Position numbers and translations under genes: made by a program | From: a virus | Lineage: Duplodnaviria; Caudoviricetes | IMG/VR virus record: IMGVR_UViG_3300032373_000018 | Span: 1 to 49,021 of that record | Direction: 5' to 3' (one strand) | DNA: 49,021 bases | The notes under the pieces: model-generated | Database searches by the model: none | What the model saw: the letters and a program-made list of their open reading frames with translations, nothing else | What the model was told of the DNA's origin: nothing | Shown: one piece after another, positions 11,049 to 39,826 of the stretch | Layout of the letters: each line of letters starts with the position of its first letter | Numbering within the stretch: the stretch's first letter is position 1

Positions 11049-14000
11049 CTAATTATCGTCATCCGGGCCGGTGACAATCGCCTCAAAAAGTGTCGGATCA
11101 TCATCTTCCGCGAACGTCTTCTCAGCCTTCATGGCCTGTACTGTGCCAGGCACCCCGAACAAGAACCCGCCCGCCTTAGCGGTCTCTAGCATTGCGCGGC
11201 GCACAGTTTCACCCTCGGCCTCGCCATCCTCATAGAGCTGCGTTCCAGCCTTTGCCCAATTCTCAGTCGCGCGCGTTACGCTCGTTCCAACCTGAAATGC
11301 AGCAGGGCCACTATCGTATTTGCTGACCGCGCTCGATATGCCTGGAATAAGACCAAACGTGTTGCGCATCATCATTTGCCAAACCGCAACGACATACGGA
11401 TCTTCTTCGTCACCAAATCCGCCTCGGATCAGAGCTTCCAGCATTGATGCAACCAGGTTCAGGAACACCATGTGCTTGAGCAGAGGCATCAGCTTTTTGA
11501 GCCCCTGCTCGCTGACCACATCATTTCGGACTGTGCCGTAGTAGCCGGAGACATAACCCCACATGAAGGAAAGCAATCTAAGGCCTTCATTGCCGCCCTG
11601 CATGACGGACTGGTCAATCTCGAGACCTGAACCCTGCGTGGTCGACACTGCGCGATCGGCCATTGTGATCGCATCGGCTTCGCTGACACCTTCAGATTTA
11701 GCCTGGTTGTATACGCCGACCCACAGCGGACCAGAGACAGAGTGCTTTTCGGCAATCGCCATCATCCAGTAACCAGCGCCCTGGAACTTGGCGTATTGTG
11801 TTTGACCGGCAGATTTGCGGATCAGCTCATGGGCCTCGCGGGTCAATGTATCTTGACGCTCGCGCATGAACGCCGACTTCTCAGCAATCAGTTTCGCGTT
11901 CTTGATCGGGTTGCTGTAATACTCAGCGACGCCTGAAAACACTGTCTTGAACCCATATTGCGGAATGACCGTTTGGAAATAAGAAATCGGGGCAAGACCC
12001 GCGGTCACCACATTGCCGCCCAGGATGGCGACGGACGCATTGATGCGTAAAGTCTGCAGAAGGCGCTCGAACGCCGTGTCAGGCCGCTCTGTGCCGGTTA
12101 CGGTGCGCTTTAGAATGGTTTCCAGCGTCTTCAGGTACTCCTCGCCCTGCGTTTCCTTGATCACCTTGCGAATACGATTCTTGTTCAGCAACCGGGACAC
12201 ATGGGACGCAGGCTCGCGCATATAGATGTCATTGGTCACGTCATCGATGTGGCTCAGGATAACGCTCAGGCTTAGATCAAGAGGGCGCTCAACGTTTTGT
12301 TGACGCTCTTTCAGGAAGCCCTGGCGTGTGGAGGCACGGGTTGCCATACCGTTTACGCCGTTCTTCCACTCCTCAATCTCATCCTTCTTCTGAAGATCAT
12401 TATTTGACAGAAACCCGCGGTCATACTTGAGCGGATAATACCCGCCCCGATATGCGCCAAAATTGGTTTGAACCGATGAGGCCTCAACCTTCTTAGGCGT
12501 GACGCCAGTTGCATTGCGCTCAACAGCGCTCGCTTCTGGCCATAGTGTGTTGATCAAATCCCAGATTTCTTGCGTCGCATCCCAATGACGCTGATCGAGA
12601 TGCTCGGCAAGCATTGCCTCAATCGAAGCCATATCGCCCAGAAGAGACGGATCAGAGGCCAGTCTATCGCGGTTCTGTTCCGTGCCCATATTGAGGGCAA
12701 CAGCCATGATCTGCTCAAACTTGACAGCCCCGCCCTCGATCGCTGGCGCGGATACGCGCTTATTCAGCTCGCTCTGGGTGACGCCGTGTTTCTTGAAGAT
12801 CGCGGCTAACTTGTCCGCCATTTCCTGCCGGCGCGCATTTCGGTTTGTGAGCGCCTGCCTCAAGCGAGTATCGAACGCCTCGACAATCTTACCGATCTTG
12901 CCGCCCTGAAGCGATTCAACCAGGAACGGCCAGCGAATGATTGTTGCATCCATCTGCCTGACATTGGCCGCACGCCGTTCACCAAAGCTCGGATTGCGGG
13001 TTTCTCGGATACGCTTGCCCTTGAAGTTTTCGTCAATCTCGTCGGCGAGCGCTTGAGCCTCTTCGTTGAATTGTTCTTGCGCCTCTGCGCTCTGCATTCG
13101 GCCAAGCTTGTTCAGGTTTTTTACGCCATCGCGAAACTCTCTGAATTGCTCCATTGTCATGCGTCGACGCAATGGCAGGTCCGCCCCATTCACGACATCG
13201 CTTGGCAGAATGACCGCATGACCATCAATGGCTTGCTCATCAGCAAACTTATTCAAGCCGTCGCGAAGCTCTGTTTGGTCCTGCGCACCGGGAAGCGCCA
13301 TCAGCTCGCGGATCTTCGCGATGTATTTTGGCGCAATCTTCTTAGGGTCCAGCTTCCGATGCGCTGCAAACTTAGCAAGATAACGGTTAGCCTTCTCTAT
13401 CTCATCGCGCGCCTTAAAGGCCCTGCGAGCCAATTCATGCTGAAGCATCGCCTGATGAGTATAGCGCAAGGCATCATCCCATTTGCCTTTGGCGGCGGCG
13501 CGAAGTGATTTCTTGTGTAGATCGCGCGCCTTAATGGCGTATCGACCAGGCTTGATGACCTTGTCGATTGGCATGGTATTGATGAGGCGGTCAGCCTCGT
13601 GACGAATGGCAATCAATGGGATTGCCTCACCGGATGCCTTTTCAGCCAGGGCGTTGCGCTCAGCCTCCATCATCCGAATGTTCGGCTCGTTAAAGACGGC
13701 TTCCATGGCCTCGGATTCAATCGTGCCGTCCTTGAGCATGTCGCCATATCGATCGCCCATGATCTTTTCGACAGTCTCTTTGACAACTCTCTCGAACGGG
13801 GCAGCTTTCTCGACCGCCTTGAACATCTCGTCAGCGGACGTGAAGCCCATCTCAGGCGCCACAATCTCAGGATGCTCGCCACTCTCTGACGTGGTCAGCT
13901 TCGTCTCGACGCTAACTTCAGCAGCGTCCAGTGATCGTCCACCTTCGCCAAATGCAGCAAGGGCTTTGTATTCCGGCCATGTCATGAGCTGAGCGCGAGC

Positions 14001-17000
14001 CATATCCTCGACACGGCCCCGTTCTTCTTTGTAAGCCTTACGCTCACGAGCTTTCACTTCTGCCATATGCTTCTTGAAAAGCTTGTCTCGGGCGACATTT
14101 CCAGCCTTGCGGGCGTGTTTCTGATACTTCTCGACCTGCTCAGGCTTCATCAGGCCAGTCATCACGTTCGACAGCGTGCCGACATATTGACCTTGCGCCA
14201 TCTCGATCTCAGCATCGCTCGCCAGCATCCGGTCAAAGATGTCGCGGGCTTCAGGCTCAAGATTACGGAGTTGACCACGAAGGCGGCGATACACATCGAC
14301 AAACCATTGACGGAATGAATGGAACACGCTGCGCAGCTCTGCGCTCGGCGCAACACCTTCCATCAAATAGGCCTCAAAGCTCTCGGCAAACTTCTCATGC
14401 TGGTCGCGGGTAATCTTCGCGCCCGGTTCAATCTTCAGCCATTTACGGATCGCGCCCATGCGCTCGGCAATGACTTCGTTTTCACTTTCAAGCGCAGCAT
14501 ACAGCTCAAGGAAAATATGCGCACTCTCGTGCATGAAGCTCGTGCGGTCATTTTTCTTGAGCAGGTTAACGATGACATTCTGATCAGTGAGGACGCCGCC
14601 ACCAGGGATGAGGACAGAGGCGCGCTTTTCCTGAAACAGCACATTGCCCTTGGCCAGCTTCGCCTTGGCTTCTGGGGTGATGCGGATGGCGAGGACGGGC
14701 TCTACCCCGCCCGCTCGCCCAGTTTCTATCTCGCCCATCGCATTTGGTTCGTTCCAAGTGTGGCGAGTGTTGACATCAACCCGCTCAACCTTGGCCCCCA
14801 ACTCCTTCGCCACCTTTCGAATATGCGCGGGCAGACGATCATCATAGAATTTCCGCGTCCCTTCGTTTTGGAGGGCATCGTTCAGCGTTTTGTGATTGGT
14901 AAACGCGACGACTTCCTGTCCATCCTCAATCGCCTGCTGGATTACCCGCCGAACAAATGGCTTTTCCCAGTCTTTGACGGGTGCACGGGGCGGGCGTTGT
15001 GCGTTGTTTCCCGTCTCTCTAAGCTCGTTTGCGGCGCGGTGTGCTTCGCTTACTTCCCGCGCCAACTCGCGACCAGTCGGATCCTCAAAACTATTCGACC
15101 AAACGGGCTTACCCTTGTCAGGATGCTTGTCCGGCAAGCCATCTTTCCAAATTACAAACCTATCGAGGAGCATTGTGGATCGTTCTTCAGCGGCGCGGAC
15201 GTCCTGATGAGTTACTGTCTTGGCGCCATCAACCGAATAACCATACTTCGCCCCCTCCTGATGCAGATCAGACTGCAGCTCATCAACGAACCGAACCGCC
15301 TCACCATCCGCGGTCACGCGGTCAGTCGTGCGGATATGACCGACGACGCCTTCAGTGTTCCAATTGTGCGACTTATAACCAGCCGCCGCTTCGGGCATGA
15401 CGATCAGTTCTTGCTGATAATTACTATGGTTGCCGGGAGAGACGTATGTTCGATAATCCGTCTCTGGCGGGAGCCCTCGTTCATCCAAATCATCAGCCGT
15501 ATCCTGCCCAATCCTGCCTTTGCGGGTGTTGGATTGAACTTTCGGCCTCTGCGCCCGAACCGCCTTGATTACATCGGCTTTCGAGATGTCGCCCGTCTTT
15601 GGCAAAGTCGCCAGCGCAGGCTCGATCATAAAATCAAACGCTTCTTTGGTCGCTCCGGCTTCGGTAAAGTATTTGCGCCACTGAGCAGCCGTCAGGTTAC
15701 GCGCGTCGCGGAAACGCGGGGGCGGATCAAACAGAGCTTTTTCAGCGCTCGTGATAAAGCCCAAATCATCTGTGCGGATGGCGACAAGTCCATTGCTATC
15801 GGGGATTTCGACACCCGCCTCAGACGGCAGGCTTTCTTGCTGGGCGCTCTGAAACAGCTCCCGCTGCGCAGGCTCTATTTCTGTGAATGTAGCTCCACGA
15901 ACGCCATCGCCAGATCGTCGTCCGTCAGATTGTCCCACTCGTCCTGGCTCAATCCGTCCCACCTCGTCTGCGGTGTCGAGGAAGTTGTCCCGGTAGGTTG
16001 GTCCTTCGACGCCTGCTGGAGGGGCGTTTTCGTTTGTTCGGAGTTCACCATCTTGGAATCTTGCCCTTGTTCGTTCAACCGCATCTTCTCTTATAACATA
16101 AAATGATCGACCATGCAGCGAACTTCTTACTGTTTTTTCGCCCTCAACTTCCATCGTGTTGATGCGGTTTGTTCCAATCTCAAAAGCGCGATAGCCCGGC
16201 AGGCGCATACGCTTCAGCAGGGACATGTACATCTTGTTGCGCGTGTCGGTTGAATCCGACCCCGTGAAGTGAATGCTCTCAGGGTTCTCCCGACTGATAA
16301 ACTCCTCAAGCATCGCAATGCTGCGGGAGAATGCCAGCACACTCTGTTGCACTTCTTCTGGTGTCGTCGGACGCTTGACCATCTTGCCCGTCTCAGGGTC
16401 TTGGATCTTATTGTCTTTGCGCTCAAGACGGCCCTCAAAGCGCATTGTGACGCCGCCGCCATCGTCGATACGCATCGAAATGTCATCTGTCTCACGGTTG
16501 GGATGTGACTTGGCCGTGAGAACGATCGTACCGTCCGCATCAATTCGCTGCGTGACTTCCTCGTTAAACCACTCAGTTCGCTCTGCTGGGTCCATTTTGA
16601 GAGCCTGACGCATGGAAGCAGGAGCGGATTGAGCAAGCAGGTTCGAGCTGTCAGAGTGATCCGGGTCAAAGGCTGCGTTTACTGAGCGGATGTTGGAAGG
16701 GTCGAAGATGATGGTATAATCACCGCCCCGAAAAACCCGATCCGCCGAAAAACCCGCAGACGGATGATCCTGAATCCCCCGAATAATGATGCCATCGTGA
16801 CCAGCATCTGTAGCGTCAGCAATCTCTTGTTGCATCCGAGAGCGACTGTATTCTGGCATATCTTCAATTATTTTAGGATTTTCAAGGCGCGCATGAACCG
16901 GATAAACTTGCCCATCTTCTATATAGGCATCCATGTTGTATTCACGAACCGCCTCATTTGAGGCACTCAAGCGAGCCTCCTTAGTGCTTTGTCGAACAGC

Positions 17001-19136
17001 AAAGCTGTTCAATCGCTCTAGCGCCTTGTCCATATTCTGACGCGAGCCACGGTCCACGGCCCTACGGCCCCCACCGGAAGCGTATACATCACGGTTTGAA
17101 TAGCCTGACGCCACATTTGGATTGTTCGTCAAAAAGATTGCTGGCTGGCCGTCAGAGAGAGAGAGTTCCGCGCTAAATGCGTCAATGTCTTTGCTGGTCC
17201 CATGATACAGCACCACATCCGTATCAAACCCCATCTCAGCAGCCCGTGCCATGCGCCCCTCTTGGGACATGTCGAGGCCCTTCTCGACCGCAGCAACCCA
17301 TTCACGGGCCTCGCCTGCATTGTCACCATCGAAGCCAGTCTCTGCGGCTTGGTTCATCACGACAGTATCGTCAGCTTGTTGCGCTGCCGGCTCATTGACC
17401 TTCAGACCAAGCCGCTCAAACACAGCGCCCTCGTCAACACCAGCCTCCGCGAGCTGACGGAACATAGCGCCCCATACAACGCCCGCGCCTTCAGCTTCTG
17501 CCTGTCCACGTCCCGCACCCAATAATTGCTCTGTCACAGCGCTTTGTACGCGCTCGAAGCCTTCCAGCGCCTCGTCCTGCTCTGCAAACCGCTCAAACGC
17601 TTCAGTGAAGTCGACAGACCCCATAGCGTCGGATTCTTCCACGGAGCGCTCAAGCTCTCGTAAGGTTGGCGTCTCTTCATCGGCCTTTGCGATCTTCACC
17701 CAATCCTCGAAGCCGTCAGCCACGGATAGGATTTGCGCAGCTTCGACCTCAATGTCATGACCGTCCATCGCGCGGGAAATATCGTCTTCGGTTAAGCCGA
17801 CCTCCTCCATGCGCTGCATGAATACCTGCGGATCAGATTGATAAAGCTCAACCAGGTCTTCGCCGTGGAGTAAGACCGTTTCACCCTCACCCGCCTCGCT
17901 CAAGAATGTCTCAATGCTTTCACGAGAACGCTGGAAAACCGGCGTCTGTTCGATAACTTCGCGGATGTCGACCAGCTCTTGTGCCGCGCTCTCTGCTCGC
18001 GCGCCTCGCGCCTTGCCGGGTAAGGCCACCTCAACCAGAGCCTGGAAGATCGCAGCGGCTGAACCAGCAACCGTCGCCTGCTCACCAAGACCCTCAAGAA
18101 GCTTCGCCTCTTCGTCATAGCCCATCGTGATCAAGTTTTGGCCAAGGCCCTCGATCGTTTCCTGAACGACTTCTTCGCCAGCTTGCCCCATAATCCGGGC
18201 CAAGACCTTCGATGTTACACGCTGACGCGCCTCTTTGGGCATCATTCGCATGATCGAACCAAGACGCATTTGCTCGCTTAGTCCCGTAACTCCCGCGCCA
18301 GCCACAAGTTCTGGCAGCATCTCATCAGGGTTAAGGCCAGCATTGGTAATGCTCTGCGCCTGCTGATCCGCCCCCATACCCATAAACATGCCGGTTGTGA
18401 TTTGAGGATTTTTAGTCACCGCAGCAGTTGCAACGGTCGCAAGTATTTGACCAAGACCTTCCGCAACACGGTCCTCAAATCCCATATCCTCGGGACGCAT
18501 TAACTCAGCAAGATCGAGAGCGCCTTTGCCAGCAGTCCGTAAATAGTTTTGTGGGGCAAATTGCTTGGCCTCCGGCGCGATCTCAGCTTCTACCGCGTCC
18601 GCCGCCCTAAGCGCATCGCCAAGGCCCGGAACTTTGTAACCTAGATTGACGTAAGCGCCATATAGGTCACCAGCGCCCTTTGTAACGCTACCCAGCGTTT
18701 GCGGGAACGCGGCAGCGATTCCACGCCCCAAGTCACCTGCCTGCGTGAATGGTGCCTCCAGCCAACCTTTCGAGCCCTGGGAGCTGATACGCTTCGAATA
18801 GAGCTGCTCAATAAGCCCCATATCTTCTAGGCTGTCCCGACCGATTGCAAAATTCTCAGGCTTACGCGCCCATTTACCGAGCTTTGGTGCATCCTGGGTG
18901 AGCTTGTTCAGCGAAAATATTTCATCCTCTCGTTTGTAACGCTCTCGATCCACAGCGATTGCAATTGGATCTGTGCCCAACTCAGCCGCCTTGCGCTGAT
19001 CATAAGCCGCATCGTCCGGCGCATCCTCAGTGAGGAGCACATTTCGGCGCAAATCTAGGTCATCCTGAGAGGCGCTGAACGTCCCCTCTCGGATAGACGC
19101 TAACGTGTCATCAGAAAGAAATGCATCATTCTTCAT
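11049..19136 (-). CDS. Giant internal virion / DNA-ejection protein of large polyvalent protein type (ART-like, ExQSD and HExxH domains)
   Basis: 2695 aa at the T7 gp16-like position; LYHGT..IFLT..VYPV..DGIII..FDPSNIRS (ART-PolyVal-like), RFVDELQSD and FMHESAH...EKFA. Confidence 0.9.
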   Translation of the reverse strand: MKNDAFLSDDTLASIREGTFSASQDDLDLRRNVLLTEDAPDDAAYDQRKAAELGTDPIAIAVDRERYKREDEIFSLNKLTQDAPKLGKWARKPENFAIGRDSLEDMGLIEQLYSKRISSQGSKGWLEAPFTQAGDLGRGIAAAFPQTLGSVTKGAGDLYGAYVNLGYKVPGLGDALRAADAVEAEIAPEAKQFAPQNYLRTAGKGALDLAELMRPEDMGFEDRVAEGLGQILATVATAAVTKNPQITTGMFMGMGADQQAQSITNAGLNPDEMLPELVAGAGVTGLSEQMRLGSIMRMMPKEARQRVTSKVLARIMGQAGEEVVQETIEGLGQNLITMGYDEEAKLLEGLGEQATVAGSAAAIFQALVEVALPGKARGARAESAAQELVDIREVIEQTPVFQRSRESIETFLSEAGEGETVLLHGEDLVELYQSDPQVFMQRMEEVGLTEDDISRAMDGHDIEVEAAQILSVADGFEDWVKIAKADEETPTLRELERSVEESDAMGSVDFTEAFERFAEQDEALEGFERVQSAVTEQLLGAGRGQAEAEGAGVVWGAMFRQLAEAGVDEGAVFERLGLKVNEPAAQQADDTVVMNQAAETGFDGDNAGEAREWVAAVEKGLDMSQEGRMARAAEMGFDTDVVLYHGTSKDIDAFSAELSLSDGQPAIFLTNNPNVASGYSNRDVYASGGGRRAVDRGSRQNMDKALERLNSFAVRQSTKEARLSASNEAVREYNMDAYIEDGQVYPVHARLENPKIIEDMPEYSRSRMQQEIADATDAGHDGIIIRGIQDHPSAGFSADRVFRGGDYTIIFDPSNIRSVNAAFDPDHSDSSNLLAQSAPASMRQALKMDPAERTEWFNEEVTQRIDADGTIVLTAKSHPNRETDDISMRIDDGGGVTMRFEGRLERKDNKIQDPETGKMVKRPTTPEEVQQSVLAFSRSIAMLEEFISRENPESIHFTGSDSTDTRNKMYMSLLKRMRLPGYRAFEIGTNRINTMEVEGEKTVRSSLHGRSFYVIREDAVERTRARFQDGELRTNENAPPAGVEGPTYRDNFLDTADEVGRIEPGRVGQSDGRRSGDGVRGATFTEIEPAQRELFQSAQQESLPSEAGVEIPDSNGLVAIRTDDLGFITSAEKALFDPPPRFRDARNLTAAQWRKYFTEAGATKEAFDFMIEPALATLPKTGDISKADVIKAVRAQRPKVQSNTRKGRIGQDTADDLDERGLPPETDYRTYVSPGNHSNYQQELIVMPEAAAGYKSHNWNTEGVVGHIRTTDRVTADGEAVRFVDELQSDLHQEGAKYGYSVDGAKTVTHQDVRAAEERSTMLLDRFVIWKDGLPDKHPDKGKPVWSNSFEDPTGRELAREVSEAHRAANELRETGNNAQRPPRAPVKDWEKPFVRRVIQQAIEDGQEVVAFTNHKTLNDALQNEGTRKFYDDRLPAHIRKVAKELGAKVERVDVNTRHTWNEPNAMGEIETGRAGGVEPVLAIRITPEAKAKLAKGNVLFQEKRASVLIPGGGVLTDQNVIVNLLKKNDRTSFMHESAHIFLELYAALESENEVIAERMGAIRKWLKIEPGAKITRDQHEKFAESFEAYLMEGVAPSAELRSVFHSFRQWFVDVYRRLRGQLRNLEPEARDIFDRMLASDAEIEMAQGQYVGTLSNVMTGLMKPEQVEKYQKHARKAGNVARDKLFKKHMAEVKARERKAYKEERGRVEDMARAQLMTWPEYKALAAFGEGGRSLDAAEVSVETKLTTSESGEHPEIVAPEMGFTSADEMFKAVEKAAPFERVVKETVEKIMGDRYGDMLKDGTIESEAMEAVFNEPNIRMMEAERNALAEKASGEAIPLIAIRHEADRLINTMPIDKVIKPGRYAIKARDLHKKSLRAAAKGKWDDALRYTHQAMLQHELARRAFKARDEIEKANRYLAKFAAHRKLDPKKIAPKYIAKIRELMALPGAQDQTELRDGLNKFADEQAIDGHAVILPSDVVNGADLPLRRRMTMEQFREFRDGVKNLNKLGRMQSAEAQEQFNEEAQALADEIDENFKGKRIRETRNPSFGERRAANVRQMDATIIRWPFLVESLQGGKIGKIVEAFDTRLRQALTNRNARRQEMADKLAAIFKKHGVTQSELNKRVSAPAIEGGAVKFEQIMAVALNMGTEQNRDRLASDPSLLGDMASIEAMLAEHLDQRHWDATQEIWDLINTLWPEASAVERNATGVTPKKVEASSVQTNFGAYRGGYYPLKYDRGFLSNNDLQKKDEIEEWKNGVNGMATRASTRQGFLKERQQNVERPLDLSLSVILSHIDDVTNDIYMREPASHVSRLLNKNRIRKVIKETQGEEYLKTLETILKRTVTGTERPDTAFERLLQTLRINASVAILGGNVVTAGLAPISYFQTVIPQYGFKTVFSGVAEYYSNPIKNAKLIAEKSAFMRERQDTLTREAHELIRKSAGQTQYAKFQGAGYWMMAIAEKHSVSGPLWVGVYNQAKSEGVSEADAITMADRAVSTTQGSGLEIDQSVMQGGNEGLRLLSFMWGYVSGYYGTVRNDVVSEQGLKKLMPLLKHMVFLNLVASMLEALIRGGFGDEEDPYVVAVWQMMMRNTFGLIPGISSAVSKYDSGPAAFQVGTSVTRATENWAKAGTQLYEDGEAEGETVRRAMLETAKAGGFLFGVPGTVQAMKAEKTFAEDDDPTLFEAIVTGPDDDN

Positions 19137-34732: not shown

Positions 34733-34760
34733 AATCTACCAGCATTCGCGTTCCCGTCAA
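34733..34760 (-). promoter_or_regulatory. Putative late promoter (pR'-like)
   Basis: TTGACG, 16-bp spacer, (TG-G)TAGATT overlapping the stop of the late regulator; followed by GCCC/GGGC hairpin. Confidence 0.6.
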
Positions 34761-35371
34761 GTGATCCTGCCAAAGAATGGCTCTGCGGCTTCCAAATAAT
34801 TGCGCAAAACCCCGCGCAGCCTGCTCTCTATGTCCTTCGTGCGTCCTCGGAGCTGACCTGATGCCTGCCTCATGCTGACATGGCCACACACAAGCCCCGT
34901 GACAGGCTTTACGAACTCAACCCCCGGCAATGTCCGCTCAGCCGCCTCAAGCGCTCTCTCGGCCTGCTGTAGGGCGTGTATCTTGGTTTCCATGCCAGAT
35001 GCTTGCCCGCCTTGAACGAATACCAGATTACCGCTCGCAGCTAAATGCACCTCACGAGCCACCATGTAATCACGCAGGCAAAGTGCTGTGCGTCCGTGGC
35101 GCTCTTCCAACTGGCGAGCCTTCAACATGTTTCCGATAGCGTCGCGGCTCCCTAACTCTCGGATAACACCGAAGGCGATTGGCTTGACCTCAGAGCGGCG
35201 CTGCTTCTTCTTCAGATCCATAGCCGCATCGCGTCTGCGCTTGGCTTCATCAGCATCGCCATCAATCAGAGCAAGGCGTTCGGCTTCTTCCTGGACCCAA
35301 AGAGAATTGTCAGCATCGTTGCGACGGGTGACATAGGCTCTTTGTGGATTGAGCACGGTTTGGTGTTTCAT
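34757..35371 (-). CDS. Putative late-gene regulator (Q-like position)
   Basis: 204 aa with C-terminal HTH-like segment; last early gene before the late promoter. Confidence 0.55.
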   Translation of the reverse strand: MKHQTVLNPQRAYVTRRNDADNSLWVQEEAERLALIDGDADEAKRRRDAAMDLKKKQRRSEVKPIAFGVIRELGSRDAIGNMLKARQLEERHGRTALCLRDYMVAREVHLAASGNLVFVQGGQASGMETKIHALQQAERALEAAERTLPGVEFVKPVTGLVCGHVSMRQASGQLRGRTKDIESRLRGVLRNYLEAAEPFFGRIT

Positions 35372-35664
35372 TCGCCTGCCTCCTTGAGAATGGCGGGAGA
35401 TTTGGACGGAAAGTGCGCCTCGGCTCGCGGTGAGTCTTGGATCATCAATTCAACTGCAGCCATGGCGGTTTGCCGTGCTTTATGTTGGCTTCTGTGATAT
35501 GCTGTTGCTGAAATGCCTGTTGGATTGTGGGTGACTTGCACCCAGCTATTGTTCGGGCCGCAATGCCACATTCCGCTGTCAGGCTTATCCACCGCGCTTG
35601 TGATGGTAAAAACCGGATCATCAGGCGGGGTGCGCTCTATATCTGTGCCTTGTGGGTTATTCAT
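35368..35664 (-). CDS. Peptide-chain release factor domain 3 / ArfB-like protein lacking GGQ
   Basis: NSWVQVTHNPTGISA...RSQHKARQTAM matches the RF-1 pattern S.VR.TH.PTG....RSQ..N...A. Confidence 0.75.
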   Translation of the reverse strand: MNNPQGTDIERTPPDDPVFTITSAVDKPDSGMWHCGPNNSWVQVTHNPTGISATAYHRSQHKARQTAMAAVELMIQDSPRAEAHFPSKSPAILKEAGE

Positions 35665-35965
35665 TGGGGGAGTCCTTCATGAAGGCAGAAACAGCAGAAT
35701 CGAGAAGCCAGCCAATCGACGCAATAAAGGCCACGACTAATGCGAACGCTAAAACAGCCGGCCAAAGGAACGAGGCAAAGATTGGTGCAAGAGCAAGCGC
35801 CCAAAGCGAGCTGTAATAATCAAACTCAGAGGAATACATCTCCCTCTCTCGCCGCCACTCAAGTTCTCTTTTTGCGTCAGCCGCCTGTTCGGCCATTGCA
35901 TAGGTCCAACTCAGGAAGCTAACGGGATACCCGACCCAATACAAAATCCAGTACCAATCCATCAC
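35657..35965 (-). CDS. Membrane protein
   Basis: 102 aa with 2-3 hydrophobic segments. Confidence 0.65.
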   Translation of the reverse strand: MMDWYWILYWVGYPVSFLSWTYAMAEQAADAKRELEWRREREMYSSEFDYYSSLWALALAPIFASFLWPAVLAFALVVAFIASIGWLLDSAVSAFMKDSPNE

Positions 35966-36104: not shown

Positions 36105-36755
36105 TCATGCTGCTTGCCTCCATTCAAAGTTTGCTTGAAAGGCTGCTCGAATAAATCCGCGAGGCGTCTCCGAACGAACATCGCCACGGCCTTTCCCAGG
36201 GCTCGCTTTGTGAATGCGATCATCCGGATCAGGCAGGCCTTCAGCGCGATTGGGTTGTGGCATCACAAACCCACCAAAACACCAGACGCTGGTTTTCTTG
36301 GTGTAGTTATCTTCGAGACAGAAACCGGTGTAATCGCCCGGGTGGAAGTAATGATCAGGCTTGCGCCAGTGAGACGACATTGCGGTGATCGGGTTCTCGA
36401 TGAAGCCAGGACAATCAGTCAACTCCGCCAACTCTTGTGATGTCGCGAAAAAACCGACTGACTGCTGAAGCGCTCGCAGTCCCTTGGTCGCAAAGTCTCG
36501 CGCACCACACACTGCAACATCGGTGCATGGCGGAAAGCATCCGAGGAAATCAATATCGGCCGGCGTGTATCCGCGCTCAGCTAATTTGATCAGCACGGGA
36601 CCGAGCGTAGACAGGTCACAGTAAACACCATGAGCCAGTTCTGGCTTGCGGATGCCATGCTGAATATCGAAGCAAAGGACATCCCAACCAGCCTCAAGGA
36701 ACGGCTCGGCTGCCTTGCCGGTGTAGTCGAACAGAAAGACTGCAAGCTTGCTCAT
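36105..36755 (-). CDS. Compact DNA cytosine-C5 methyltransferase-like protein
   Basis: FLFDYTG (motif I variant), FPPCTD (motif IV), IENP (motif VI) and RS.TP.GF. Confidence 0.8.
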   Translation of the reverse strand: MSKLAVFLFDYTGKAAEPFLEAGWDVLCFDIQHGIRKPELAHGVYCDLSTLGPVLIKLAERGYTPADIDFLGCFPPCTDVAVCGARDFATKGLRALQQSVGFFATSQELAELTDCPGFIENPITAMSSHWRKPDHYFHPGDYTGFCLEDNYTKKTSVWCFGGFVMPQPNRAEGLPDPDDRIHKASPGKGRGDVRSETPRGFIRAAFQANFEWRQAA

Positions 36756-37141
36756 GCGACTTTCCACCCGAGCCCGGAAACGAAATTGAAGTCCGCCTCT
36801 GGCGTGTCAGACTCAGCCATTTTCACGAATTGTTCTGATGTCCACAGAGGCTCAATCTTGTATCGCTTGCCCTTGCTGACCCGGTAGCCTTTGCCATCGT
36901 AGCCATGTGCCCGGCGCAATCCGTTCAAAACCGTGGTGTGGTCTCCGAGGTGCAGCATCTTGGCGATCTGGGGCTGGGAATACTTTCCAGTTGCGTCCAG
37001 ATAGGCCATCACGAAAAAGCGGGGCGCGGTATGCGAGCGAGCTTTAGTCTTGGCTCGAAGCGCCTCAATCGTGATCAAGCGCCCAAACTCAATGCTCGCC
37101 CATTTTGCGGCCTGTTCAAGTGTGTTTTGGTAAAAGCTCAT
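36752..37141 (-). CDS. DnaA C-terminal (domain IV)-like DNA-binding protein
   Basis: PR..VMAYL...YS.PQIA..L...DHTTVL.G.R. Confidence 0.85.
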   Translation of the reverse strand: MSFYQNTLEQAAKWASIEFGRLITIEALRAKTKARSHTAPRFFVMAYLDATGKYSQPQIAKMLHLGDHTTVLNGLRRAHGYDGKGYRVSKGKRYKIEPLWTSEQFVKMAESDTPEADFNFVSGLGWKVA

Positions 37142-38781: not shown

Positions 38782-38912
38782 TTCTTCCCCCGCTTTTTGT
38801 CTTGCTGCTCATCGCGGGCTTTCTGGACAACGAAGTCGAAGGCTTCCGCTGGCTTCATGCCGTCAACTCGGATGAGTTTGCGTCTTAGTTTGTGGTGGTC
38901 GGATCGGAGCAT
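38778..38912 (-). CDS. Hypothetical basic protein (44 aa)
   Basis: MLRSDHHKLRRK...KRGKK; fills the gap with coupled overlaps. Confidence 0.5.
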   Translation of the reverse strand: MLRSDHHKLRRKLIRVDGMKPAEAFDFVVQKARDEQQDKKRGKK

Positions 38913-39826
38913 CAGGCGGCGTCCTCTTCGAACAAGTCTGTCGGAGGATCGTCACGCTCGTATGGTTGAACGGCATCACCCTTTTGGGCGGCGGTCCGGA
39001 GAACGTGGCGCAGGTCTCGAATTTCTTGCTGCATGCCGCGAAACACGCCATCTTTCGACAGCGAACCAATCAGTTCACGACGCCGGAAACGTAGGTCTCG
39101 CCACTCCGCATCCTCGGGTAACCCGAGCGCACGAGCGGCCTCGACGCGCGTGACCTCAAGTTCTCGTTTGGCCGTCTCTTTATATTTTTCCGCCATTTCT
39201 CGCGCCTCGGAACGGGCGTTTCGAAGTGTTTCAGTGGCCTCCCTACGGCTTTCATCGGCATGCTGTTGAGCAAGATCGAGCCGAGTTTTCGCGCCGAGCT
39301 GATCGCGGACAACACTCGCAACCTCTTCCCCCAAATCACGGCTCACCGACCTTACCACTGACCACTGATCGATTCTTCGAGGCATTGGAGGGTTTTTGGC
39401 TATTGTTCGGTCAATACCGTCGATCACCAGTTTCATCATCGACTGGAAATCGGGACGCCCTGTTCCAGGCTTTTCCCGTTTCATAGTCTTCCAACCGTTC
39501 TCGCCCCGAACGATCAGGCCGCACTCGAATGGCACTTCCGCTTTGGTGATCAGACCCTTGGGGACAGCGAAGATCACGCCGCCCGAGAAATCCAAATACT
39601 TTTGCCACTTGGCTGCATTCACATCCGACAGGAAGTCACTACGGCTCACCTTGATCTCGTAGCTAACGGGCCGTGGCCGACTGTAGGACTTTTCCAGAGT
39701 GTAGACATCTGGACGCGGTGAACCGCTTGGGCCCATCTGCATGTCCGTCCAAACCATTCGATTGTCTGACACGAGATGCTGAGCCAAATCCGATGCAAGC
39801 TCATCATGTTTCCACTTGTGGGTCAT
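38912..39826 (-). CDS. MmcB-like PD-(D/E)xK nuclease with coiled-coil tail
   Basis: RPDV...YEIKVSRSDFLSD...KWQKYL. Confidence 0.8.
   Translation of the reverse strand: MTHKWKHDELASDLAQHLVSDNRMVWTDMQMGPSGSPRPDVYTLEKSYSRPRPVSYEIKVSRSDFLSDVNAAKWQKYLDFSGGVIFAVPKGLITKAEVPFECGLIVRGENGWKTMKREKPGTGRPDFQSMMKLVIDGIDRTIAKNPPMPRRIDQWSVVRSVSRDLGEEVASVVRDQLGAKTRLDLAQQHADESRREATETLRNARSEAREMAEKYKETAKRELEVTRVEAARALGLPEDAEWRDLRFRRRELIGSLSKDGVFRGMQQEIRDLRHVLRTAAQKGDAVQPYERDDPPTDLFEEDAA

What the first reader, a model, noticed from the sequence alone, without database searches (positions are those of the whole stretch)
35368..35664. Stand-alone release-factor catalytic-like domain with GGQ replaced
Seen: the RF/ArfB signature (S.V..TH.PTG....RSQH.....A) is clear, but the loop reads SGMWHCG instead of GGQHVN, and there is no basic C-terminal tail. 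Established: GGQ is required for peptidyl-tRNA hydrolysis and is methylated by PrmC; ArfB needs its basic tail. Inference: a catalytically dead RF mimic that jams ribosomes, or decoys PrmC or translation-targeting defence proteins; it is coupled to the late regulator.
Basis: partly seen in the sequence, partly recalled or inferred. Interest (0 to 1): 0.7.

Follow-up and report, generated by a model that had tools for sequence, protein, structure and literature searches.

The report
Phage release-factor mimic with rewritten loop
A temperate phage encodes a 98-residue copy of just the catalytic domain of bacterial translation release factors, with the essential GGQ motif swapped for a different, strongly conserved loop shared by a phage family with no profile of its own in Pfam or PHROGs; it is likely a non-catalytic decoy that would bind a host protein such as the release-factor methylase PrmC rather than the ribosome.

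Summary
Observation confirmed. The ORF (35368-35664, minus) is homologous to RF1/RF2 domain 3: the family profile hits 400 of 401 alphaproteobacterial genomes (19 of 19 hits checked are GGQ release factors); hhalign 97%. It lacks GGQ and a basic tail.

It is no one-off decay. It belongs to a phage subfamily (142 hits) with loop D[KR]PxxG[M/Q]WHCGPNxxW, a C-terminal CxFPE cap and purifying selection (pN 0.15, pS 0.74). The loop is one residue longer than in RFs. I favour SGM = GGQ plus an inserted Trp; hhalign instead puts Trp on Gln.

Coupling to the late regulator is not supported: 5 of 5 close regulator relatives lack the gene. Ribosome jamming is disfavoured, since the tail-less YaeJ GGQ domain does not bind ribosomes (PMC3950681).

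Best reading (0.4): a soluble non-catalytic decoy for a host reader of the GGQ loop, first candidate PrmC; no binding evidence was obtained. The scan met GGQ-intact phage mini-RFs on other DNA, but not this variant. New variant of an annotated, untested family.

The parts
35368..35664 (-). 98-aa stand-alone release-factor domain-3 protein of the GMWHCGPN (W-loop) subfamily
35542..35589 (-). Rewritten loop, residues D26-W41 (DKPDSGMWHCGPNNSW), in place of the GGQ loop; one residue longer than in RF1/RF2
   Evidence: sequence; conservation; register
35434..35547 (-). RF-like core, residues about 40-77: strands 2 and 3 (WVQVTHNPTGISAT) and the long helix (RSQHKARQTAMAAVELM)
   Evidence: model secondary structure; hhalign
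35404..35418 (-). C-terminal cap, residues 83-87 (AHFPS here; CxFPE in the family; xx[FY]P[ED] in 152 of 178 cores), absent from the GGQ-type minis and host RFs viewed
35673..35677 (-). Shine-Dalgarno-like AAGGA, 8 nt upstream of the start codon; the start overlaps the upstream gene by 8 nt
   Evidence: sequence
34757..35371 (-). Downstream 204-aa DUF6456-like gene (likely late transcription activator), overlapping by 4 nt (ATGA); a neighbour, not a conserved partner
   Evidence: DUF6456 on 18-19% of members of the top clusters
35657..35965 (-). Upstream 102-aa membrane-like ORF; in related phage L231 it precedes a different gene in the same slot

Best explanation
A phage accessory gene derived from release-factor domain 3 has replaced GGQ with a selected xG(M/Q)WHCGPN loop, and its product likely works off the ribosome as a non-catalytic decoy that would bind a host protein that reads the GGQ loop, most plausibly the methyltransferase PrmC. 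Shown: homology to RF domain 3, loss of GGQ, decoding domain and basic tail, family-wide conservation, purifying selection, phage-type contexts, and no fixed neighbour. From established knowledge: both glycines are needed for peptide release, a tail-less GGQ domain does not bind ribosomes, and PrmC/HEMK1 methylates the Gln of GGQ loops, including those of ArfB-type proteins that lack the decoding domain. Inferred: Met in the Gln position would act as a non-methylatable pseudo-substrate (by analogy to histone K-to-M inhibitors, recalled), lowering RF methylation and so the speed and accuracy of host termination during infection. Split of the 0.4: PrmC about 0.25; another reader of the RF loop, such as a defence sensor or effector, about 0.15.
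For: Homology. The model is a three-stranded sheet plus helix, pLDDT 85.6; its best Foldseek hit is RF1 (2b3t_B, E 0.015), and VIA gives Z 7.1, rmsd 2.4, 56 aligned to RF1 1zbt. Selection: pN 0.15, pS 0.74 over 46 unique 30-codon cores, and 0.16/0.72 for codons 42-55. Position 32 is M in 160 and Q in 14 of 178 cores; M 27 and Q 6 of 36 W-loop rows in the HMMER set. Other phage mini-RFs show the same Q/M exchange at the GGQ position: GGQHVG (P0056), GGMQVG (P0059), GGMTVG (phiPsa347_006), TGMHV (P0045). The YaeJ delta101-140 domain was 100% in the soluble fraction (PMC3950681). Any glycine mutation abolishes release (PMC5799190 passage). HEMK1 methylates ICT1 and C12orf65 (PMC8904536 passages). 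Unmethylated RFs are slower and 2-4-fold less accurate (PMC8131318 abstract).
Against: No partner gene, fusion or experiment points to PrmC. The loop is one residue longer than in RFs and carries a bulky invariant Trp beside or on the Gln position; hhalign places Trp on Gln, which would remove the Met-mimic argument and could exclude the loop from the PrmC pocket. The first Gly is Ser in most members (S 101, G 20 of 178). PrmC also contacts RF domains 2/4 (recalled), which are missing here. The phage's own genes depend on host termination, so the benefit is unclear. The added aromatic residues and the CxFPE cap suggest the subfamily may have changed partner. Structural scores are middling and tie with unrelated dsRBD-like folds.
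Confidence: 0.4

Rival explanations
1. Non-catalytic ribosome binder: it docks on the 50S A-site cleft, alone or with a partner, and blocks or hibernates ribosomes.
For: It descends from a domain that binds the peptidyl transferase centre. H61, K/H62 and R/K64 of the RSQHK helix are kept. A GGM mini-RF of Pseudomonas phage phiPsa347 is fused to an L7/L12 C-terminal-like domain (E 1.6e-5, 25.6 bits against a 25.9 cut-off). Inactive RF domains serve on ribosomes elsewhere (MRPS35, Dom34; PMC6514570 passages).
Against: The YaeJ GGQ domain alone does not bind ribosomes. The protein and family are slightly acidic with no basic tail. No conserved docking partner was seen among neighbours of 30 loci or in clustering of 67 loci. 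RSQ is eroded in most members (R58 26%, S59 47%, Q60 48%).
Confidence: 0.2
2. Anti-defence sponge: an oligomer of this dsRBD/RF-like fold binds a nucleotide immune signal, working like Acb4 but independently derived.
For: Acb4 is a 96-aa phage sponge whose fold resembles release factors and hibernation factors (PMC11722364 sections 7-8). This family has similar size, phage accessory placement and conserved W33, H34, N38, W41, R/K27, R54 and F85 that could line a pocket. The loop is modelled with high confidence (block pLDDT 95 and 90).
Against: 0 of 110 members match Acb4's Pfam family PF13876 at E<=0.1. Acb4's pocket is built from the beta3-alpha4 loop and helices and is strongly basic, whereas conservation here is in the beta1-beta2 loop and the core charge is about -1. 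This copy has Thr at R54.
Confidence: 0.15
3. New function unrelated to translation or immunity signals: the scaffold presents a novel loop that binds some other host or phage protein, or a metal through H34/C35/C70/C83.
For: The loop, W41 and the CxFPE cap are subfamily inventions. C35, C70 and C83 occur together in 83 of 110 rows.
Against: This copy and 6 other rows keep only C35 of the three. W-loop and GGQ-type loops are interleaved on a tree built without the loop (P0004 with P0056, 99/92; at least 3 changes forced), which suggests the two loop types are interchangeable on one scaffold.
Confidence: 0.15
4. Still an active, codon-independent peptidyl-tRNA hydrolase that uses the backbone NH at the Met/Gln position.
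For: Gln is kept at position 32 in 14 of 178 cores and one glycine is retained; GGQ-intact relatives share the scaffold (P0056, P0058).
Against: Both glycines are required; the loop has an extra residue and a Trp; there is no ribosome-docking element.
Confidence: 0.07
5. Decaying relic without function.
For: The gene sits in a variable slot and is absent from 5 of 5 related late-regulator loci; one copy is interrupted by an IS (L072).
Against: pN/pS about 0.2 with saturated synonymous sites; 142 hits at 90% clustering; intact ribosome-binding site.
Confidence: 0.03

Closest known systems
Phage stand-alone 'RF-1 domain peptide chain release factor' proteins (PHROG 20323; e.g. phiPsa347_006, Rhizobium phage LG08 CDS0066, Mycobacterium phage Myrna gp2)
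   Same: Minimal RF domain 3 without decoding domain, TH.PTG and RSQHK motifs, phage accessory placement; several also lack exact GGQ (GGM, GMQ, SGLVN).
   Different: Fixed D[KR]PxxG[M/Q]WHCGPNxxW loop, one residue longer, plus a CxFPE cap; only 23 of 110 members match PHROG 20323 at E<=0.01.
Domain 3 of bacterial RF1/RF2 (Pfam PF00472)
   Same: Homologous fold and sequence.
   Different: No GGQ, no domains 1, 2 or 4; below the Pfam cut-off.
ArfB/YaeJ, ICT1, C12orf65
   Same: RF catalytic domain without the codon-recognition domain.
   Different: No GGQ, no inserted helix alpha-i, no basic C-terminal tail, which YaeJ needs for ribosome binding.
Acb4 (PF13876), phage nucleotide sponge
   Same: Small phage protein with a dsRBD-like three-stranded sheet and helix, described as resembling release factors.
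   Different: No sequence match; different location of conserved residues; oligomer state unknown.
Hypothetical protein vBDshSR26L_15 (XBW75330.1) of Dinoroseobacter phage vB_DshS_R26L
   Same: A cultured-phage member of this subfamily (loop DKPKRGAWTNGPNPCW; E 9e-8 to the query, 4e-17 to P0063).
   Different: Annotated only as hypothetical; Ala at position 32, TN for HC.

Membership tests
Class-I release factor RF1/RF2 | RF-1 (domain 3) homology | tested here: met
   Pfam E 6.3e-5 though under the cut-off
Class-I release factor RF1/RF2 | GGQ motif | tested here: not met
   SGMWHCG in the sequence; GGQ absent in either register
Class-I release factor RF1/RF2 | Stop-codon recognition domain (PCRF, domains 2/4) | tested here: not met
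   98 aa bounded by overlapping neighbours; no PCRF hit; family median 88 aa. Longer fused forms were not searched with 'lengths: longer'.
ArfB/YaeJ/ICT1 | Basic C-terminal tail | tested here: not met
   pI 5.9; family last-25 net charge median -1
ArfB/YaeJ/ICT1 | Inserted helix alpha-i between strands 2 and 3 | tested here: not met
   model has a 5-residue turn between E40-46 and E52-57
Phage stand-alone RF-1 domain proteins (PHROG 20323) | Profile match | tested here: met
   E 1.1e-4 for the query; 23 of 110 members; weak, so a divergent subfamily
Phage stand-alone RF-1 domain proteins (PHROG 20323) | Viral or prophage context | tested here: met
   window is a virus record; 15 of 15 viral pattern hits are members; phage-type neighbours; only the seed prophage genome scored at family level among 401 genomes
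Acb4 (PF13876) | Sequence match to PF13876 | tested here: not met
   0 of 110 at E<=0.1
Acb4 (PF13876) | Structural match to the Acb4 protomer | tested here: inconclusive
   both are dsRBD-like; fold lists are filled by RFs and dsRBDs at middling scores
Acb4 (PF13876) | Tetramer that binds cyclic dinucleotides | not tested
   oligomer not modelled; binding needs an experiment
PrmC substrates or pseudo-substrates | Binding to PrmC | not testable with these tools
   needs a binding or methylation assay

The most novel reading that the evidence does not exclude
A phage family turned the release-factor GGQ domain into a Gln-to-Met pseudo-substrate inhibitor of PrmC, a viral counterpart of histone K-to-M inhibitors, and so tunes host stop-codon decoding; phages swap GGQ, GGM and GMWHCG loops on one scaffold as specificity cassettes.
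Probability: 0.2. Interest if true: 0.85.

Novelty: new variant of a known kind. Interest (0 to 1): 0.55.

Why it matters
Phage 'mini release factors' are annotated in many genomes, but none of my ten paper searches listed a functional study of them. This subfamily is a natural experiment: it drops the catalytic motif yet holds a new loop under strong selection, so whatever these proteins do here is probably not peptide release. It makes the open question testable with small soluble proteins and a cultured phage-host pair (vB_DshS_R26L and Dinoroseobacter shibae). A PrmC inhibitor would be a new way for phages to alter translation termination; a sponge would be a second immune-evasion protein built on this fold.

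Tried and rejected
Complex prediction of alphaproteobacterial PrmC (30-row alignment) + SAH + residues 14-92 (110-row alignment): verdict 'no answer', score 0.00 in both runs, controls not folded. This is no evidence either way.

Coupling to the late regulator: rejected. The family HMM found no hit in 29 loci fetched with the regulator (5) or the small terminase (24); many of the terminase loci are short or distant.

Conserved partner gene: none seen. The top two clusters are antisense shadows of the gene itself. A lysozyme recurs on the opposite strand in 12 of 67 loci, duplicates included. L006 has a PHROG 757 methyltransferase next door, the family also found two genes upstream here; tblastn did not link them.

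Pattern scans were unspecific outside viruses: only 4 of 48 genome-contig hits are members (L026, L036, L039, L042); many of the rest share a K-W-H-C-G-P-N word in long unrelated ORFs.

Foldseek gave no match at E<=0.001 in PDB or BFVD.

Metal site: not supported for this copy. The covariation analysis returned no output and was not repeated.

Expression: no RNA holder listed. No tRNA genes in the window.

Literature: ten searches listed no study of this subfamily; GGQ+GGM+release factor gave 0 papers. PMC6514570 main text has 0 occurrences of 'phage' and its supplement, cut when stored, none of WHCG or GMWH. The library lacks most subscription papers.

Full report
Observation. The ORF at 35368-35664 (minus strand, 98 aa) is as described. 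It has AAGGA 8 nt before its ATG and overlaps its neighbours by 8 and 4 nt. The window is a 49,021-base virus record. It reads as a temperate, podovirus-like phage: integrase fragment, repressor and Cro-like genes, replication initiator, terminase, head-tail adaptor, internal virion proteins, endolysin. The gene lies between the replication genes and the terminase. An alphaproteobacterial host is inferred from the neighbours and from relatives.

Homology. Single-sequence evidence is weak but consistent: Pfam RF-1 E 6.3e-5, under the cut-off; PHROG 20323 E 1.1e-4; PDB RF1/RF2 at E 0.015 and weaker. Family evidence is firm. The 48-row profile matched 400 of 401 alphaproteobacterial genomes, mostly twice, in frames of about 350 aa (the tally includes two unpublished genomes, on which no claim rests alone). 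19 of 19 loci checked were GGQ-bearing RF1/RF2. hhalign gave 97%, E 1.3e-10 over 61 columns. The model (pLDDT 85.6, pTM 0.69) has three strands and a long helix. Its best Foldseek hit is RF1 (E 0.015, TMq 0.50). VIA gives Z 7.1 to RF1 1zbt, tied with unrelated dsRBD-like folds. The fold searches agree with the sequence evidence but would not stand alone.

Family. A profile search of 1.84 billion representatives gave 55 hits: 36 with the W-loop, 3 with GGQ, 13 other or partial, 3 long and unrelated. A second search gave 142 hits at 90% clustering, 120 listed. In 178 unique cores: D26 173, P28 174, M32 160, Q32 14, H34 171, C35 163, P37 170, N38 175; xx[FY]P[ED] near the C-terminus in 152. These counts are biased upward: the selection pattern fixed G31, W/F33, G36 and W41, and many sequences were found through loop words. 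Purifying selection holds outside the search motif too: pN 0.16, pS 0.72 for codons 42-55 of 46 cores. All 15 viral pattern hits and 4 of 48 genome hits are members; the four are alphaproteobacterial records. One cultured phage, Dinoroseobacter vB_DshS_R26L, carries a member annotated as hypothetical.

Register. Anchored on strand 1 (DYRVE against DLRID) and on the TH of strand 2, the loop is one residue longer than in host RFs. Where the extra residue lies is not settled. hhalign opens the gap upstream, giving GMW = GGQ. I prefer SGM = GGQ with Trp inserted after it, for three reasons: no gap is then needed from strand 1 to residue 32; Gln is the second commonest residue at 32 and was not seen at 33; and other phage minis show the same exchange (GGQHVG, GGQQVG, GGMQVG, GGMTVG, TGMHV, SGQKVG). 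GGQ is lost either way. A tree built without the loop (58 rows, 41 columns, rough support) mixes loop types: W-loop P0004 pairs with GGQ-bearing P0056 (99/92), and starred branches force at least 3 changes. This hints at repeated loop exchange but rests on few columns.

Context. I scanned 125 neighbour ORFs from 30 loci (120 of the 165, plus 5 from L003). They are varied phage genes: HNH nucleases, ligase, integrase, exonucleases, methyltransferases, head genes. Clustering of 67 loci found no fixed partner. The downstream gene resembles DUF6456 proteins (a lead, on 18-19% of cluster members), the label carried by homologues of the GTA activator GafA (PMC9638019, one passage), so 'late regulator' is plausible. 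The link is not conserved: 5 of 5 loci with 62-78% identical relatives lack the RF-like gene, and L231 keeps both flanking genes with another ORF between them.

Mechanism. Catalysis is very unlikely: mutation of either glycine abolishes release (PMC5799190, passages). Direct jamming is disfavoured: YaeJ lacking its tail was 100% soluble and inactive (PMC3950681; abstract, sections 19-20 and part of Results read), and this family is slightly acidic. The strongest conservation is in the former catalytic loop, so that loop most likely binds something. PrmC is the soluble reader of this loop that I know of. Its mitochondrial homologue methylates ArfB-type proteins without a decoding domain (PMC8904536, passages), and unmethylated RFs are slower and less accurate (PMC8131318, abstract). 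A Met in the Gln position would suit a pseudo-substrate; the K-to-M analogy is recalled. This step is inference only, and the inserted Trp and new cap argue that the partner may have changed. I give the decoy reading 0.4 (PrmC about 0.25). Rivals: non-catalytic ribosome binding 0.2, helped by a GGM mini-RF fused to an L7/L12-like domain in phiPsa347; an Acb4-like sponge 0.15, since Acb4 has a release-factor-like fold (PMC11722364, sections 7-8) though 0 of 110 members match PF13876; an unrelated new function 0.15; residual hydrolase 0.07; relic 0.03.

Comparison and novelty. It is not an RF1/RF2 or an ArfB: GGQ, decoding domain and tail were tested and not met. It is a divergent subfamily of the annotated phage stand-alone RF-1 domain proteins; 23 of 110 members match PHROG 20323 and 23 match PF00472 weakly. 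Burroughs and Aravind's survey (PMC6514570; abstract, section 8, passages and a cut supplement searched) does not mention phage versions in what I saw. Ten paper searches listed no functional study (see Tried and rejected). The scan noted GGQ-intact phage minis on other DNA and nothing like this sequence. Supplements of the bioRxiv Acb4 paper were not seen and could list further structural homologues. Verdict: real, selected, new variant of a known but untested kind; interest 0.55.

Noticed in passing
L072:2888-5213 (-): A family member is interrupted by an insertion of about 1.9 kb with terminal inverted repeats, an 8-bp target duplication and a transposase-like ORF (IS1595-type by recalled motifs).
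   Followed up: partly
L174:595-990 (phiPsa347_006, MT670420.1): Phage mini-RF with GGM in place of GGQ, fused to a C-terminal L7/L12-like domain (E 1.6e-5, just under the cut-off).
   Followed up: partly
window 34757-35371 (-): DUF6456-like protein with no Pfam or PHROG hit of note, between replication and packaging genes; likely GafA-type late activator with a variable gene slot upstream.
   Followed up: partly
window 11049-19136 (-): 2695-aa protein matching only an unknown-function family (phrog_9880, residues 1499-2666); placed like an ejection protein.
   Followed up: no
window 38912-39826 (-): MmcB-like domain followed by a long helical region.
   Followed up: no
window 36752-37141 (-): Stand-alone DnaA C-terminal-like helix-turn-helix protein, also found in 4 of 5 related late-regulator loci.
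   Followed up: no
L015:5842-6240 (-): A family member sits in the head-gene region, between an HNH nuclease and the head maturation protease, unlike most copies.
   Followed up: no
P0012, P0015, P0019, P0066, P0150 and others: Some members carry 40-80-residue C-terminal add-ons of varied type (one DUF551-like), as is common for small phage accessory genes.
   Followed up: partly
L005:537-926 (Myrna gp2): Mycobacteriophage RF-like protein whose GGQ loop is shortened and lacks GGQ altogether.
   Followed up: no
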